From positions 1-64,000 of the IMG/VR virus record IMGVR_UViG_3300033149_002604: 64,000 bases of DNA; one strand, given 5' to 3'. This DNA comes from a virus. Made by a program: the position numbers and the translations under genes. Under the pieces are notes generated by a model. It saw only the letters and a list, made by a program, of their open reading frames with translations. It was not told the DNA's origin and did no database searches. Positions 9,404-14,742 of the stretch are shown here, piece by piece; position 1 is the stretch's first letter, and the number at the start of each line of letters is the position of its first letter.

Positions 9404-9476
9404 GAGCCACAAAAGTCAAGACACCCAAAAAGCTTAAGCGAGTCATAAAAGGCAAGACACCCAGACATATTAAGCG
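9404..9476 (+). repeat. TIGR-type dual-repeat array 1 (2 units)
   Basis: GAGCCA-N8-AAGACACCCA-N8-AAGCGAGTCA-N8-AAGACACCCA-N8-AAGCG, 36-nt period. Confidence 0.85.
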
Positions 9477-9482
9477 TTTTGA

Positions 9483-9536
9483 AGGTTGGCTTCAGCAAAA
9501 CAATTCTGACTTGGGATCAGACATTATGCCAGCCTG
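9483..9536 (+). ncRNA. Array-appended stem-loop RNA copy 1, with tRNA-Pro(UGG)-like anticodon arm
   Basis: AGGTTGGC/GCCAGCCT stem, TTCAGCAA, inner TCTGA-CTTGGGA-TCAGA (9505-9521). Confidence 0.75.
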
Positions 9537-9551
9537 AAATTTGTGAGAAAG

Positions 9552-9592
9552 GAGCGAGCCAAGTTTCTAAGGACACTCAAAGTAAAAAAGCA
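9552..9592 (+). repeat. TIGR-type array 2 (single degenerate unit)
   Basis: GAGCGAGCCA-N8-AGGACACTCA-N8-AAGCA. Confidence 0.65.
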
Positions 9593-9598
9593 TTCCAA

Positions 9599-9662
9599 AG
9601 GCTGGTTTCAGCAAACATACAAGGCATTTAGCCACCAGTTAAGTAAACCTAGTGCCAGCCTG
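9599..9662 (+). ncRNA. Array-appended stem-loop RNA copy 2
   Basis: AGGCTGGT/GCCAGCCT stem, TTCAGCAA, variable inner hairpin. Confidence 0.7.
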
Positions 9663-9686
9663 TAAATTAACAATTGGAGGGCAGCC

Positions 9687-10046
9687 ATGAAAAAGAAAAA
9701 ATTTATATTGATTTTATTAGGGATTTTACTTTTATTGGTAATAAATAATCCATTTGTATTTCCATCAGATGATGGTGAAACAGGCATAGATTGGGTGTGT
9801 ATAGGTAAACCTTCCTGTGTTAGCGTCTTAACATCCTGCAATTTCCAACCAGTTTCTATTATAAAGACTAAACTTGCTTGGATTATTGTCCGTGGGTATC
9901 CCAAGGTTTCTTTTGAGCATCCTTTATATATCGGGAAACTTGCACATAATTTATTTCTATGTACATCACTTATAGGGGAAGATGCTGATTCACAACCGTT
10001 GTTAGAAGTTCTTTACATAGAAACGAAGGGAAAAATTACCGATTAA
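9687..10046 (+). CDS. Hypothetical protein with N-terminal signal/TM segment
   Basis: MKKKKFILILLGILLLLVI; RBS GGAGG. Confidence 0.65.
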   Translation: MKKKKFILILLGILLLLVINNPFVFPSDDGETGIDWVCIGKPSCVSVLTSCNFQPVSIIKTKLAWIIVRGYPKVSFEHPLYIGKLAHNLFLCTSLIGEDADSQPLLEVLYIETKGKITD

Positions 10047-10057
10047 GTAGGTATTGT

Positions 10058-10480
10058 ATGTCAGACTTTGACCCAAACAGAATAAAACTTTCTATTGATA
10101 ATAGTTCTCTTTATGCACTTGAAAATGAACTGATAGACTATCCCAGACAGCTAGGGGAACTGCATAGGGTTTATTCACAGGCTATAAAGAAAGTAGACAA
10201 ATTTACACTGGAATTGGAAATTTTAACAGCAAAGATTCTAGAGGAGATGCAAAAAGATGCAGAACGCAAGGGACGGCCCTATCCACCATCATCATTACAA
10301 GAAGTCAGGAAAACGAAAGTTCCACTGGATAAAAGATATAAACGATTAAAATTACAGTTAATAGAAGCAACTGAGGAAAAAAATATATTAGGTGGTTTAG
10401 TAAAGGCTTATGAAGCTAAAGGGTATCGGTTACAAGAGCTGATTCAGCTGGCCAATAAACGGACGGATTTTGCGTTTTAA
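10058..10480 (+). CDS. UvsY-like recombination mediator
   Basis: 140-aa helical protein whose size and pattern resemble T4 UvsY; clustered with SSB and RecA/UvsX. Confidence 0.5.
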   Translation: MSDFDPNRIKLSIDNSSLYALENELIDYPRQLGELHRVYSQAIKKVDKFTLELEILTAKILEEMQKDAERKGRPYPPSSLQEVRKTKVPLDKRYKRLKLQLIEATEEKNILGGLVKAYEAKGYRLQELIQLANKRTDFAF

Positions 10481-10481
10481 G

Positions 10482-10554
10482 GAGCCATGAGATGTGACAA
10501 AGACATTAGGTGAAAGCGAGCCACGTTTGTTAAGACACCCACAGTGGGAAAGCG
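10482..10554 (+). repeat. TIGR-type array 3 (1 degenerate + 1 intact unit)
   Basis: GAGCCA-N8-GACAAAGACA-N8-AAGCGAGCCA-CGTTTGTT-AAGACACCCA-CAGTGGGA-AAGCG. Confidence 0.75.
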
Positions 10555-10560
10555 TTCCGA

Positions 10561-10621
10561 AGGTTGGCTTCAGCAAAAATATTATGGACTGATTGCTAAT
10601 TCAGAACCCTATGCCAGCCTG
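10561..10621 (+). ncRNA. Array-appended stem-loop RNA copy 3 (inner loop TTGCTAA, Ser(GCU)-like)
   Basis: AGGTTGGC/GCCAGCCT stem, TTCAGCAA, inner CTGA...TCAG. Confidence 0.7.
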
Positions 10622-12795: not shown

Positions 12796-12804
12796 TAGGA
12801 TTTA

Positions 12805-12912
12805 AGCCAAGGTTTTTAAGATACCCAATAATGGCAAGCGAGCCACGAGATGTAAGACACCTATTGTTTGTAAGCGAGCCACAGTTGTTAAGACACCCAA
12901 ACAACTTAAGCG
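12805..12912 (+). repeat. TIGR-type array 6 (3 units)
   Basis: Same repeats, with single-base variants AAGATACCCA and AAGACACCTA. Confidence 0.88.
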
Positions 12913-12918
12913 TTCCGA

Positions 12919-12975
12919 AGGCTGACTTCAGCAAAAATATTATCTAGTTTGTAAGTGACAAACCTTGTCAGCCTG
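12919..12975 (+). ncRNA. Array-appended stem-loop RNA copy 4 (compensatory change in outer stem)
   Basis: AGGCTGAC/GTCAGCCT perfect stem with G-C to A-U covariation; TTCAGCAA; inner GTTTGT/ACAAAC. Confidence 0.75.
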
Positions 12976-12981
12976 TTTTAT

Positions 12982-13058
12982 GAGCGAGCCAAAAGAACAA
13001 AGACACCCAAAAGCCGAAAGCGAGCCATATGCTTGAAGACACCCACAACCATTAAGCG
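12982..13058 (+). repeat. TIGR-type array 7 (2 units)
   Basis: Two exact 36-nt units. Confidence 0.88.
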
Positions 13059-13064
13059 TTTTGA

Positions 13065-13118
13065 AGGTTGGTTTCAGCAAAACTATTATGGACTGCAAAT
13101 CCACTTTTCGCCAGCCTG
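13065..13118 (+). ncRNA. Array-appended stem-loop RNA copy 5, with tRNA-Cys(GCA)-like anticodon arm
   Basis: AGGTTGGT/GCCAGCCT stem, TTCAGCAA, inner TGGA-CTGCAAA-TCCA (13089-13103). Confidence 0.75.
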
Positions 13119-13132
13119 AAAGGAGTTAGATC

Positions 13133-14545
13133 ATGAAAAAGACAAAAGAAAATGGCACACAATACGAATTTTCGCTTGATCACGCTTTGGAATTTTTTTC
13201 CAAAGCAGGGTCGTTATTCACTGGTAGACAATCCTTCTACCAAGATGAAGAATCTGCCTTATCCCTTTTCCAGAAAAGTTGGGTAGTGGATAAAGAAATT
13301 ACTATGAAATTGTTGTTTTGGCTACGGGACTGTAGGGGTGGTGCAGGGAATCGAAGTGGGTTCAGGGAATGTATTGCTTGGTTAGCATCAGATTCCCCAG
13401 AATGGGTAGAAGCTAATATCCACTTAGTCCCTGTACATGGTAGATGGGATGACCTACGGGCACTATTTGGAACACCTTGTGAATCGGAAGCAGCAAGACT
13501 TTGGGCTAGTGCTATCCTTAATAAAGAAGTTCTGGCAGCGAAGTGGGCAGACAGGAAGGATAAACCGTTACGCCACCTACTGCATATGAACGAAAAATTT
13601 TTCAGGAAACTTCTTGCTGCTATCAGAAAAGACCATATTGTTGAACATAAGATGTGTCATAATTTATGGAAGGAAATAGAATACGACAAAGTTCCTTCTG
13701 TTGCAATGGCAAGATACACAAATGCTTTTACACGGCATGATGGTGAAAGGTTTGAAAAGTATAAGGAAGCACTGAAACAGAACAGGACTACTATCAGGGC
13801 TGATGTTCTTTTCCCACATGACTGTGTTCGAACTGCATTTTCTGGGGATAAGGAAATTGCAGATGCACAATTTGAAGCACTACCAGATTATATAGGGAAT
13901 ACTGATGAAAAAATAATAGTAATTGCGGATACTTCATTTTCTATGAATGTATATGTATCTGGTTCCGTTCGGGCAGTTGATATTTCCCAAGGGCTTGCCC
14001 TTTATTGTTCAGCAAAAATTCCAAAAGATAATCCATTCCATAAGAAGTTCTTGTCTTTTTCTAACGAAGGGGAATTTAAGAATTGGAATGGTATGAAGTT
14101 TTCTGAAGCGGTACGTGATCGTGGGATATTTGATGGTGCAATGGGGACAACTAGGATAGACAGGGCATTGGATTTGATTCTAAAGACTGCAAAGTTTTTT
14201 TATTTAACCCAAGACCAGATGCCAACAATGTTGCTAATTGTTTCTGATATGCAGTTTCATGAAGGTGTGGATGGTGACGGAACGGAAGTTGAAAAAGCAT
14301 TGAAAAAGTGGACTGAAGCTGGGTATGAAATTCCTAAGATCGTGTATTGGAATACTGCTGGGTATGCAGGTTCACCAGCTACGGTTAAAAGTAGAAACGT
14401 TGGGCTTGTATCGGGGTTTTCACCTTCTATCCTGAAAAGCATTCTTGCTGCGGAGGATTTTTCTCCAGAAGGCATTATGCTCAGGGCACTAGAGAAATAC
14501 GAAGTTGTAGTTCCTATGGATATGATAACTAAACCAATTGATTAA
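13133..14545 (+). CDS. DUF2828-family protein (TROVE/Ro60-like helical domain + vWA domain)
   Basis: LFWLRDCRGGAG, GRWDDL, AAKW, YDKVPSVAM; vWA MIDAS IADTSFSM, IVSDMQF, PKIVYWN, LVSGFSP. Confidence 0.85.
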   Translation: MKKTKENGTQYEFSLDHALEFFSKAGSLFTGRQSFYQDEESALSLFQKSWVVDKEITMKLLFWLRDCRGGAGNRSGFRECIAWLASDSPEWVEANIHLVPVHGRWDDLRALFGTPCESEAARLWASAILNKEVLAAKWADRKDKPLRHLLHMNEKFFRKLLAAIRKDHIVEHKMCHNLWKEIEYDKVPSVAMARYTNAFTRHDGERFEKYKEALKQNRTTIRADVLFPHDCVRTAFSGDKEIADAQFEALPDYIGNTDEKIIVIADTSFSMNVYVSGSVRAVDISQGLALYCSAKIPKDNPFHKKFLSFSNEGEFKNWNGMKFSEAVRDRGIFDGAMGTTRIDRALDLILKTAKFFYLTQDQMPTMLLIVSDMQFHEGVDGDGTEVEKALKKWTEAGYEIPKIVYWNTAGYAGSPATVKSRNVGLVSGFSPSILKSILAAEDFSPEGIMLRALEKYEVVVPMDMITKPID

Positions 14546-14560
14546 AGGTTCTATGGTAAA

Positions 14561-14673
14561 AAGCGAGCCATGATGCTCAAGACACCCAGACGACTGAAGC
14601 GAGCCAGGTTCTTCAAGACACCCATGGACAATAAGCGAGCCACTGGAGGCAAGACACCCAGCCTTTTCAAGCG
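14561..14673 (+). repeat. TIGR-type array 8 (3 units)
   Basis: Three exact 36-nt units. Confidence 0.92.
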
Positions 14674-14679
14674 TTCCGA

Positions 14680-14742
14680 AGGTTGGCTTCAGCAAGATTA
14701 CGAAGACTTAGACATGAACTAGGTAACTTCAATGCCAGCCTG
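14680..14742 (+). ncRNA. Array-appended stem-loop RNA copy 6
   Basis: AGGTTGGC/GCCAGCCT stem, TTCAGCAA, inner GAAG/CTTC and CTTAG-ACATGAA-CTAGG (7-nt loop). Confidence 0.72.

What the first reader, a model, noticed from the sequence alone, without database searches (positions are those of the whole stretch)
9404..14742. Candidate new system: TIGR guide arrays physically fused to tRNA-mimic stem-loop RNAs beside a Ro60/TROVE-like DUF2828 protein
Seen: six of eight TIGR-type arrays end AAGCR, then an exactly 6-nt linker (TTCCGA/TTTTGA/TTCCAA), then a conserved element AGGYTGRY-TTCAGCAA-(variable hairpin)-GYCAGCCTG. Copies lie at 9483, 9599, 10561, 12919, 13065 and 14680. Only the two arrays flanking tasH lack it. 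The outer 8-bp stem covaries (G-C vs A-U; U-G vs C-G). Copies 4-6 bracket the DUF2828 gene. Established: Tas proteins bind arrays processed into 36-nt tigRNAs, and Ro60/TROVE-vWA proteins bind Y RNAs, some of which mimic tRNA. Inference: array processing releases a second class of small RNA that is the ligand of DUF2828, coupling RNA-guided DNA targeting to a tRNA-decoy or RNA-repair function. I know of no description of this composite, but cannot search.
Basis: partly seen in the sequence, partly recalled or inferred. Interest (0 to 1): 0.95.

Follow-up and report, generated by a model that had tools for sequence, protein, structure and literature searches.

The report
Ro60-like protein's RNAs interleaved with TIGR arrays
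Six small folded RNA genes in this phage belong to a widespread family that travels with a Ro60-shaped protein gene (DUF2828); only in this phage lineage do they sit directly behind mini-arrays of TIGR guide RNAs, which looks like a local rearrangement and not a new combined system.

Summary
There are eight TIGR mini-arrays (21 units of 36 nt). Six of them are followed, after exactly 6 nt, by a 54-64-nt element: a 7-8-bp covarying closing stem, an invariant single-stranded UUCAGCAA, a variable hairpin, and a trailing G.

The element is not a TIGR part. It belongs to a "CAGCAA-handle" RNA family tightly linked to DUF2828, whose model folds like Ro60 (TROVE ring plus vWA).
- In 78 other DUF2828 loci, all 92 model hits lie on the gene's strand, and 57 of the 64 best lie within 700 nt of the ORF.
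- The variable hairpins are often built like tRNA anticodon arms.
- The family matches no Rfam model, and I found no paper that describes it. This scan had already noted the same RNA-DUF2828 pairing on other genomes.

The TIGR link is specific to this lineage.
- 0 of 41 other TasH loci carry the RNA.
- 0 of 34 TasH virus records carry DUF2828.
- 0 of 49 DUF2828 records carry TasH.
- Five metagenome fragments of close relatives keep the array-6 nt-handle junction, with different spacers. One has a chimeric handle, which points to cassette recombination.

The RNA-DUF2828 partnership is well supported by comparative genomics. Functional coupling to TIGR is neither supported nor excluded. No RNA or binding data were available.

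The parts
9358..9385 (+). sigma-70-like promoter candidate P1 (TTGACA-16-TATTTT) in front of array A1
   Evidence: consensus match only
9405..9476 (+). TIGR mini-array A1, 2 units
9483..9536 (+). CAGCAA-handle RNA c1; inner hairpin is a 5-bp stem plus loop CUUGGGA (anticodon-loop-like, UGG)
9557..9592 (+). TIGR mini-array A2, 1 degenerate unit
9599..9662 (+). CAGCAA-handle RNA c2
10483..10554 (+). TIGR mini-array A3 (1 degenerate unit plus 1 clean unit)
10561..10621 (+). CAGCAA-handle RNA c3
10643..10750 (+). TIGR array A4, 3 units, no handle; ends AAGCG-TTTCTA, then the tasH ribosome-binding site
10770..11660 (+). tasH (HNH plus Nop-domain TIGR effector)
   Evidence: E 4e-89 and about 52% identity to the solved SpTasH
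11659..11838 (+). TIGR array A5, 5 units, no handle; its first unit overlaps the tasH stop codon
11848..11876 (+). sigma-70-like promoter candidate P2 (TTGACA-17-TATAGT) in front of the gp32-like gene
12805..12912 (+). TIGR mini-array A6, 3 units
12919..12975 (+). CAGCAA-handle RNA c4 (stem pair 7 is A-U)
12987..13058 (+). TIGR mini-array A7, 2 units
13065..13118 (+). CAGCAA-handle RNA c5; inner hairpin loop CUGCAAA (anticodon-loop-like, GCA)
13133..14545 (+). DUF2828+DUF7788 protein with a Ro60-like fold (helical TROVE-like ring plus vWA)
14566..14673 (+). TIGR mini-array A8, 3 units
14680..14742 (+). CAGCAA-handle RNA c6

Best explanation
The six elements are genes for small 'CAGCAA-handle' RNAs. 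This is the partner-RNA family of the Ro60-like DUF2828 protein, a Y-RNA-like arrangement.

Each RNA has these parts:
- a 7-8-bp stem joining its 5' and 3' ends, in which the sequence is free but the pairing is kept;
- an invariant single-stranded U-W-CAGCAA next to the 5' strand;
- a variable module that is often built like a tRNA anticodon arm;
- an unpaired G after the stem.

Inferred mechanism. The DUF2828 ring binds the handle (stem plus CAGCAA), as Ro60 binds the conserved stem of Y RNAs. The variable module is presented as a tRNA-part look-alike to some tRNA-acting enzyme, as a decoy or a tether.

In this phage lineage the handle RNAs and TIGR-TasH mini-arrays alternate inside two promoter-driven, terminator-free transcription units. 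TasH's own cut after the last AAGCG would then free each handle RNA with a 6-nt leader. The handle hairpin occupies the place that a terminator hairpin holds at the end of other TIGR arrays, without stopping transcription.

The juxtaposition is most likely a lineage-specific product of cassette duplication and recombination at the repeated handles, together with a shared need to be expressed as small RNAs. It is probably not a dedicated TIGR-DUF2828 machine.

Shown: the sequence anatomy, the covariation, the genomic linkage to DUF2828, the Ro60-like fold, and the lack of TIGR/DUF2828 co-occurrence elsewhere. Inferred: transcription, processing, binding and function.
For: Identity of the RNA family
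- An exact-pattern scan of IMG/VR finds the element in 7 unrelated phage contigs with no TIGR array in front of it; in two of them it follows a tRNA 3' end.
- All 7 of those records that are large or complete encode DUF2828. DUF2828 occurs in only 702 of 50,697 cultured phage records and in 0 of 34 TasH records.
- Model R2 on 78 DUF2828 loci gives 92 hits, all on the gene's strand. Of the 64 hits at E<=1e-3, 43 lie within 600 nt upstream and 14 within 700 nt downstream of the ORF.
- The same model gives 0 hits in 41 TasH loci, about 0.5 Mb.
- Stem covariation is strong. G-U pairs are valid only on the + strand.
- The DUF2828 model (pLDDT 82.5) has its 13 best PDB matches all in Ro60/TROVE, full length, with the phage phiLo Ro60 on top.
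- Anticodon-arm-like hairpins are enriched: 25 observed against 0.6 in shuffles.
- Handles also lie beside DUF2828 in an E. coli Mooglevirus, a Listeria P100-like phage and mycobacteriophage Rumpelstiltskin, where the gene is annotated 'Ro-like RNA binding protein'.

The TIGR link is lineage-specific
- Five metagenome fragments of close relatives keep array-TTYCGA-handle at orthologous sites.
- L218 has one array and one handle where the window has two of each. Its handle is chimeric, with a c4-like 5' side and a c5 hairpin and 3' side, leaving an A.C mismatch at pair 7.

Transcription and processing
- There are only two strong promoter-like sites and no terminator-like site on the + strand after the handles.
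- Dual-repeat TasH cleaves inside the edge repeat through a Y/H loop (bioRxiv 10.64898/2026.09.09.750476). The window's TasH is about 52% identical to SpTasH.
Against: - There are no expression, end-mapping or binding data for this phage.
- The conserved motif (UWCAGCAA) differs from the known Ro60/Rsr-binding motifs, GGUCCGA and GNCGAAN0-1G. The binding mode is therefore an analogy only.
- The 6-nt spacing is kept at all 11 junctions seen in the window and its relatives. This could mean the junction itself is under selection, which would favour functional coupling.
- Only 2 of the 6 window hairpins are cleanly anticodon-loop-like.
- In several phages some handle copies lie 30 kb or more from DUF2828.
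- The covariation alignment was fitted to the model.
Confidence: 0.6

Rival explanations
1. Functional composite. TIGR-TasH and the DUF2828-handle particle work together in this lineage. For example, TasH cleavage makes the handle RNAs' 5' ends and the DUF2828 particle helps mature, trim or protect tigRNAs. Alternatively, the two jointly couple DNA targeting to a tRNA-decoy function.
For: - The junction (AAGCR plus 6 nt plus handle) is exact and conserved at all six window sites and five orthologous sites in relatives, although spacers and handle hairpins turn over.
- Only the arrays that touch tasH lack a handle.
- The phage phiLo Ro60 with its Y-like RNAs binds host PNPase, an RNA-trimming enzyme (PMC12135203).
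Against: - There is no co-occurrence outside this lineage: 0 of 41 TasH loci have the RNA, 0 of 34 TasH records have DUF2828, and 0 of 49 DUF2828 records have TasH.
- TasH systems are reported to work on their own in heterologous hosts (PMC12045711).
- DUF2828 with its handles exists in about 700 cultured phages that have no Tas.
Confidence: 0.15
2. Co-opted 3' cap or insulator. In this lineage the handle hairpins mainly serve the arrays. They would be non-terminating structures that block 3'-5' exonucleases and separate tigRNA precursors from downstream mRNAs, independently of DUF2828.
For: [quoted passage not shown] Here the handle sits in that place and lacks a U-tract, except partly in c4.
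- The arrays are embedded in operons, where termination would be harmful.
Against: - A simple cap does not need an invariant single-stranded CAGCAA or a diversifying inner module.
- The same RNAs occur without arrays in many phages, next to DUF2828.
- A4 and A5 function, if they do, without such a cap.
Confidence: 0.1
3. Degenerate tRNA-derived punctuation. The elements are tRNA remnants or mimics whose main role is to recruit RNase P, RNase Z or a similar enzyme to cut polycistronic small-RNA and mRNA precursors.
For: - The 7-bp closing stem with one unpaired 3' base resembles an acceptor stem.
- Inner modules resemble anticodon arms and, in relatives, T arms (L137:5651-5724).
- In other phages the elements sit inside tRNA clusters, 5-7 nt after a tRNA 3' end.
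Against: - ARAGORN and the Rfam tRNA model do not call them.
- There is no D arm and usually no T arm.
- The best-conserved feature (UWCAGCAA) has no counterpart in tRNA.
- The tight linkage to DUF2828 is left unexplained.
Confidence: 0.07
4. DNA-level element. The repeats are recombination or cassette-boundary sites with no function as RNA.
For: The chimeric handle and the presence or absence of the [handle + array] block between close relatives show that recombination does happen at these repeats.
Against: - The stem keeps pairing through G-U pairs, which would be A.C mismatches on the other strand.
- 92 of 92 hits lie on the coding strand of DUF2828.
- The stem sequence is free while pairing is conserved across distant phages.
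Confidence: 0.03

Closest known systems
Ro60/Rsr (TROVE plus vWA) with Y RNAs: metazoan Y RNAs, Deinococcus Yrn1, Salmonella and mycobacteriophage YrlA/YrlB (Chen et al. 2014, PMC4201824), Thermus phage phiLo Ro60 with Yrl1/Yrl2 (PMC12135203)
   Same: - A ring-plus-vWA protein, by predicted fold.
- Small RNAs encoded next to the gene on the same strand, often in several copies.
- A terminal stem formed by the 5' and 3' ends, with a conserved motif on the 5' side.
- A second module that imitates part of a tRNA.
   Different: - The protein hits Pfam DUF2828/DUF7788 and not TROVE. It has only 12-19% identity to solved Ro60s.
- The RNA motif is UWCAGCAA and not GGUCCGA or GNCGAAN0-1G.
- There is no Rfam Y_RNA or YrlA match.
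- The RNAs are shorter (about 55-65 nt), and most imitate an anticodon arm and not the T/D arms.
- Binding has not been tested.
Dictyostelium Class I RNAs (Rfam RF01414; Aspegren 2004; Kjellin 2021, PMC7919456)
   Same: - The same design: 42-65 nt, a short stem joining the 5' and 3' ends, a conserved motif right after the 5' strand, and a variable remainder.
- The published search pattern GTTGRCCTTACAGCAA ... GTCAACTG (PMC5054030) contains the same UACAGCAA and the same terminal UG.
   Different: - The Rfam Class I model does not hit the phage RNAs at E<=10.
- The known Class I binder is an RRM protein (Rnp1A).
- I could not test for DUF2828 in dictyostelids.
- Homology is a lead and has not been shown.
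Dual-repeat TIGR-TasH systems (Faure et al. 2025, PMC12045711; SpTasH of Salicola phage CGphi29)
   Same: - A TasH about 52% identical to SpTasH.
[quoted passage not shown]
- Arrays on both sides of tasH, ending in a truncated edge repeat.
   Different: - The arrays are split into eight mini-arrays of 1-5 units, spread over 5.3 kb between protein genes.
- Six end in a structured non-terminating RNA gene and not in a rho-independent terminator.
- Relatives of this TasH (L126-L128 and 38 others) have ordinary arrays and no handle.
Plant dicistronic tRNA-snoRNA genes processed by RNase Z (Kruszka et al. 2003, cited as ref. 66 in PMC12045711)
   Same: Box C/D-type guide RNAs are co-transcribed with a tRNA-shaped RNA, and the two are separated by endonucleolytic cuts.
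   Different: - The order is reversed: there the tRNA comes first.
- There the partner is a real tRNA.
- Here the cut next to the guide is expected to come from TasH itself.
- This is an analogy only. I did not read that paper.

Membership tests
TIGR-Tas, dual-repeat type with TasH | Tas protein with a Nop domain fused to an HNH nuclease | tested here: met
   A profile of 21 relatives matches the solved TasH chains (21kl/9w03 set) at E 2e-134 over the full length. The single sequence gives E 4e-89.
TIGR-Tas, dual-repeat type with TasH | Arrays of 36-nt units with alternating edge and loop repeats and two short spacers | tested here: met
   20 clean units plus 1 degenerate unit, in strict 36-nt register: AGCCA-N8-AAGACACCCA-N8-AAGCG.
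TIGR-Tas, dual-repeat type with TasH | C-terminal Y/H loop that cuts pre-tigRNA in the edge repeat | tested here: inconclusive
   The Tyr aligns with SpTasH Y289 and is invariant in 21 relatives. HMMER's alignment places the His two residues off H296. No activity data.
TIGR-Tas, dual-repeat type with TasH | Arrays processed into 36-nt tigRNAs bound by Tas | not testable with these tools
   No RNA run holds this sequence.
Ro60/TROVE-Y RNA ribonucleoprotein | Protein with a HEAT-repeat TROVE ring plus a vWA domain | tested here: met
   By fold only. The model has pLDDT 82.5. The 13 top PDB matches are all Ro60/TROVE, with 508-579 aligned columns and TM about 0.5. By sequence it is Pfam DUF2828+DUF7788 and not TROVE, and phmmer finds no PDB match.
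Ro60/TROVE-Y RNA ribonucleoprotein | Small RNA genes encoded beside the protein gene | tested here: met
   57 of 64 strong hits lie within 700 nt of the ORF in 78 loci, and all hits are on the same strand. In the window, c4 and c5 lie upstream and c6 downstream.
Ro60/TROVE-Y RNA ribonucleoprotein | Y RNA carries the Ro-binding motif (GGUCCGA, or GNCGAAN0-1G in YrlA) and matches the Y_RNA/YrlA models | tested here: not met
   The conserved motif is U-W-CAGCAA. There is no Rfam match, even at E<=10 on short stretches.
Ro60/TROVE-Y RNA ribonucleoprotein | Physical binding of the RNA by the protein | not testable with these tools
   The complex predictor takes proteins and small ligands only. No RIP data exist.
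tRNA | Cloverleaf recognised by tRNA models | tested here: not met
   ARAGORN and Rfam tRNA call only the two real tRNAs at 27856 and 29255. The elements keep a 7-bp end stem and, in some copies, an anticodon-arm-like hairpin.
Dictyostelium Class I RNA (RF01414) | Match to the family model; short end stem plus a conserved 11-nt motif after the 5' strand | tested here: inconclusive
   The design and the 8-nt core UACAGCAA agree with the published pattern. The Rfam model gives no hit at E<=10.
Rho-independent terminator | G+C-rich hairpin followed by a U-tract | tested here: not met
   The terminator scan calls none of the six. After the stem come GAAA, GUAA or GAUA, and only c4 has GUUUUA.

The most novel reading that the evidence does not exclude
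In this phage lineage the two small-RNA systems have become one working unit. TasH's metal-independent cut at the end of each mini-array creates the 5' end of a handle RNA. The Ro60-like DUF2828 particle, loaded with these anticodon-arm mimics, in turn matures or protects tigRNAs or acts with TasH against a host or rival phage. That would be the first case of an RNA-guided DNA-targeting system wired to a Ro/Y-RNA-like particle.
Probability: 0.15. Interest if true: 0.9.

Novelty: new variant of a known kind. Interest (0 to 1): 0.62.

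Why it matters
- The CAGCAA-handle RNAs with DUF2828 look like a second, apparently undescribed branch of the Ro60/Y-RNA particle. DUF2828 occurs in about 1.4% of cultured phage genomes, including E. coli, Salmonella, Listeria, Staphylococcus, Campylobacter and mycobacterial phages. 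The function can therefore be tested in standard phage-host pairs.
- Their variable modules copy tRNA anticodon arms and are swapped between near-identical phages. This suggests an arms-race role, such as decoys or tethers for tRNA-acting host enzymes.
- Their design matches the unexplained Class I RNAs of Dictyostelium.
- For TIGR biology, this lineage shows arrays broken into operon-embedded mini-arrays capped by a non-terminating RNA. All spacers differ between phages that are about 99% identical in the flanks. That bears on the open question of how TIGR spacers turn over.

Tried and rejected
The tighter 21-base pattern worked. One of its eight hits (L131) looks like chance inside coding DNA.
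- Rfam at gathering and at E<=10, on the whole region and on short stretches, gave nothing for the elements.
- Sequencing-run look-up: no RNA holder listed. Only DNA runs from vent and sediment metagenomes hold small shares of the sequence. I did not lay reads.
The contexts of the 96%- and 90%-identical DUF2828 proteins (P0001, P0002) could therefore not be fetched. The metagenome junction scan partly replaced this.
- The period-36 signals in L159 and L207 are not TIGR arrays. L159 reads like coding DNA.
- A sigma-70 promoter inside the element (PeSL-like idea) was rejected: the hexamer spacing does not fit (my reading; one search lists only a weak 9/12 match at 13061).
- An extension of the stem by pairing the linker with the 3' flank is not consistent across copies.
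- The protein atlas gave only DUF2828 clusters from viruses and bacteria, and nothing on dictyostelids.
- The Listeria phage CKA15 paper's most-transcribed unannotated region is more likely the ROOL RNA that I found in the related phage cka11 than the handles. It is therefore not used as expression evidence for the family.
- Complex prediction was not used, because it cannot take RNA.

Full report
**What is in the sequence**

The window is the first 64 kb of a 96.9-kb IMG/VR virus record that is estimated 79% complete. All features discussed here lie on the + strand between 9.3 and 14.8 kb. The genes in this stretch are:
- a PolA with an N-terminal UDG domain (6936-9353);
- two small ORFs;
- a TasH gene (10770-11660);
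- a gp32-like gene (11908-12795);
- a DUF2828+DUF7788 gene (13133-14545);
- a 133-aa ORF, a clamp-loader-like AAA protein and a RecA/UvsX-like protein.

TasH is genuine. It is about 52% identical to the solved SpTasH (E 4e-89; profile E 2e-134).

A unit scan finds 20 clean units of AGCCA-N8-AAGACACCCA-N8-AAGCG plus one degenerate unit. They form eight arrays, and there are none elsewhere in the window.

The repeated element (TTCAGCAA-N25-55-CAGCCTG) occurs exactly six times, against 0.01 expected, and nowhere else in the record. Each copy starts exactly 6 nt after the last AAGCG (AAGCA once) of an array. The two arrays that touch tasH have no element.

**Anatomy of the element**

Each copy folds into an 8-bp closing stem. 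This is followed by 14-20 unpaired A-rich bases that begin UUCAGCAA, then an inner hairpin that differs in every copy, then a short linker and the 3' strand, then a G. ARAGORN and Rfam do not recognise it, even at E<=10 on 200-nt stretches. It is not terminator-like, because there is no U-tract.

**The element is not a TIGR feature**

Three relatives of this TasH (49-60% identity) have ordinary arrays beside tasH and no such element.

A 21-base exact-pattern scan of IMG/VR found the element in seven unrelated phage contigs with no array in front of it. In two of them it starts 5-7 nt after a tRNA 3' end. Stem position 7 takes all four Watson-Crick pairs in these copies.

Every one of these records that is large or complete encodes DUF2828; the only exception is a 10-kb fragment. 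The background rate is 702 of 50,697 cultured phage records and 0 of 34 TasH-bearing virus records.

I built a covariance model (R1, then R2 from 23 copies) and searched 78 IMG/VR loci centred on DUF2828 genes.
- There were 92 hits at E<=0.1, all on the strand of the gene.
- Of the 64 hits at E<=1e-3, 43 end within 600 nt upstream of the ORF and 14 start within 700 nt downstream. That zone is about 13% of the flanking DNA.
- The hits are often 2-5 tandem copies.
- The same model gives no hit in 41 TasH loci, about 0.5 Mb.

On 86 members, the stem is 94.9% paired and has 156 double-sided changes, against 37 in shuffles; controls with slid partners pair at about 40% (the alignment was fitted to the model). 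Pairs 1-2 (A-U, G-C) and the G after the stem are nearly invariant. Pairs 3-7 vary freely and pair 8 is optional. C-A-G-C-A-A is invariant, preceded by U and then U or A. G-U pairs and the complete strand bias argue for an RNA and against a DNA site.

**The protein**

The AlphaFold model of the DUF2828 protein has pLDDT 82.5 and pTM 0.80. It shows a helical N-terminal part (residues 17-249) and an alpha/beta vWA-like part (261-453). Its 13 best PDB matches are all Ro60/TROVE structures aligned over the full length. The Thermus phage phiLo Ro60 is on top (E 1.8e-8, TM 0.54), followed by Xenopus, Deinococcus and human Ro60. Sequence alone does not show this relationship.

Mycobacteriophage homologues at about 30% identity are already annotated 'Ro-like RNA binding protein', and RefSeq calls many homologues 'RNA-binding protein'.

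**The family in cultured phages**

Handle RNAs are present in three cultured phages that I examined.
- E. coli phage vB_EcoM_3HA14: in the gaps of the tRNA cluster just downstream of DUF2828.
- Listeria phage cka11: three UAACAGCAA copies behind a TTGACA-17-TATCAT promoter, immediately upstream of DUF2828.
- Mycobacteriophage Rumpelstiltskin: three copies downstream of gp54, one of them with T-arm-like and D-arm-like parts.

**tRNA mimicry**

I folded the variable parts of the 86 family members.
- 35 of 79 hairpins have 7-nt loops, against 3.8 in shuffles.
- 25 have U at loop position 2 and a purine at position 6, against 0.6 in shuffles.
- 19 of these 25 sit on 5-bp stems, typically as C-U-NNN-A-A.

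In the window, c1 (CUUGGGA) and c5 (CUGCAAA) fit this pattern. c3 is close, with an 8-nt loop. c6 has a 7-nt loop without U at position 2. c2 and c4 have 5-nt loops. One copy in a relative carries a perfect T arm (L137:5651-5724). 'tRNA-part mimic' therefore holds as a property of the family but not of every copy.

**Is there a TIGR-DUF2828 composite?**

In the sampled collections the two systems meet only here.
- 0 of 41 TasH loci have the RNA.
- 0 of 34 TasH records have DUF2828.
- 0 of 49 other DUF2828 records (20 of them at least 90% complete) have a TasH relative, while the positive control was found.
- No period-36 array lies beside DUF2828 in 78 loci.
- No RtcB is present in this genome.

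Within the lineage, however, the arrangement is conserved. A junction-pattern scan of metagenome contigs found five short fragments (L216-L220) with the same repeats, the same TTYCGA linker and orthologous handles. Four observations follow.
- L216 is about 99% identical to the window through handle c6 and the next gene, yet all six spacers of the 3-unit array differ.
- At the c3 site, one relative keeps the hairpin and another has a different one, while both handle arms are identical.
- L218 has one array and one handle where the window has A6-c4-A7-c5. Its handle combines a c4-type linker and pair-7 base with the c5 hairpin and 3' strand, which leaves an A.C mismatch. This is the signature of recombination between handle copies.
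- The handle-less array A4 also ends AAGCG-TTTCTA, and its orthologues end TTTCTA and TTTTTA. The 6 nt may therefore be the array's own trailer. Outside this lineage only the A at position -1 is conserved before handles.

**Most likely mechanism**

Only two strong promoter-like sites (9358 and 11848) and no + strand terminator-like site after the handles are found. Arrays, handles and ORFs are therefore probably parts of two long transcripts (inferred).

Dual-repeat TasH is reported to cut pre-tigRNA inside the edge repeat through a C-terminal Y/H loop. In the window's TasH the Tyr is conserved, and a His lies two residues away from the aligned position. A cut after the last AAGCG would leave UUCCGA plus the handle (inferred).

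The handle would then fold and be bound by the Ro60-like ring through the stem and CAGCAA, by analogy with Y RNAs. It would present its variable module as a tRNA-part look-alike (inferred).

The handle sits where other TIGR arrays carry a terminator hairpin but lacks the U-tract, which suits arrays embedded in operons.

I consider the juxtaposition a lineage-specific outcome of cassette duplication and recombination plus shared small-RNA expression (confidence about 0.6). True functional coupling is a minority possibility (about 0.15).

**What is known and what is new**

The Ro60/Y-RNA pairing is known, including in phages (PMC4201824, PMC12135203). This RNA family differs from it in three ways: its motif is different, it matches no Rfam model, and its protein is filed as DUF2828.

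No paper in the searched library mentions DUF2828 in this context. The Listeria phage CKA15 paper only speculates that abundant RNAs near its Rsr-like gene might be Y RNAs. Its most-transcribed unannotated region is probably a ROOL RNA, to judge from the related phage cka11.

The design and the core UACAGCAA match the published pattern for Dictyostelium Class I RNAs (PMC7919456). That lead came from earlier notes of this scan, and I checked the motif in a paper.

The scan had already found the RNA-DUF2828 pairing on other genomes. It holds no note linking it to TIGR. TIGR-Tas itself is known.

What is new here is the split, operon-embedded mini-array layout capped by handle RNAs, and the complete spacer turnover between near-identical phages.

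**Limits**

E-values from my models are rough. The covariation counts rest on a model-fitted alignment.

Noticed in passing
window 14566-14673 versus L216:1-108; window 10483-10750 versus L219 and L220: The flanks are about 99% identical between related phages, yet all or nearly all TIGR spacers differ and unit numbers vary. One unit is shared with 2 changed bases in spacer A. Spacer turnover, or exchange of whole arrays, is therefore very fast in this lineage.
   Followed up: partly
L218:998-1061 (- strand): A chimeric handle RNA. It has the linker and stem pair-7 base of copy c4 and the hairpin and 3' strand of c5, leaving an A.C mismatch. The [c4 + array A7] block is missing. This is evidence for recombination between handle copies.
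   Followed up: partly
L217:602-666 versus window 9483-9536 and the tRNA-Gly at window 29255-29328: At the orthologous site a relative keeps the c1 hairpin stem (UCUGA/UCAGA) but has loop UUGCCAU in place of CUUGGGA. The stem and the GCC triplet resemble the anticodon arm of the phage's own tRNA-Gly(GCC), which reads UCUGG-CUGCCAG-UCAGA.
   Followed up: partly
L264:2431-2982 (Listeria phage cka11): A ROOL RNA match (RF03087; 86 bits, E 3e-16, just under the gathering score) lies inside the tRNA cluster, 1 kb upstream of the handle RNAs and DUF2828. It probably explains the 'most transcribed unannotated region' reported for the related phage CKA15 (PMC12282133).
   Followed up: partly
L137:5728-5797 (= L139:4729-4795): A degenerate tRNA-like element with an acceptor stem and a perfect T arm but no normal D or anticodon arm (sub-threshold tRNA-Sec model hit, 22.5 bits). 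It sits between handle RNAs upstream of DUF2828.
   Followed up: no
PMC5054030 and PMC7919456; handles family-wide: The Dictyostelium Class I RNA search pattern (GTTGRCCTTACAGCAA ... GTCAACTG) shares the end-stem design, the UACAGCAA core and the terminal UG with the phage handle RNAs. The Rfam Class I model does not hit them.
   Followed up: partly
window 11658-11663: The tasH stop codon overlaps the first unit of the downstream array A5. The array is directly followed by a near-consensus promoter (TTGACA-17-TATAGT) for the gp32-like gene.
   Followed up: no
window 6936-9353: The family A DNA polymerase carries an N-terminal uracil-DNA-glycosylase-superfamily domain and a 3'-5' exonuclease domain in one 805-aa ORF.
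   Followed up: no
window 47889-48207 (- strand): A group I intron match (RF00028; 66.6 bits, above the gathering score).
   Followed up: no
PMC12282133 (Listeria phage CKA15): The DUF2828-type protein CKA15_055 was detected in purified virions with 57% sequence coverage. This hints that the Ro60-like protein may be packaged.
   Followed up: no
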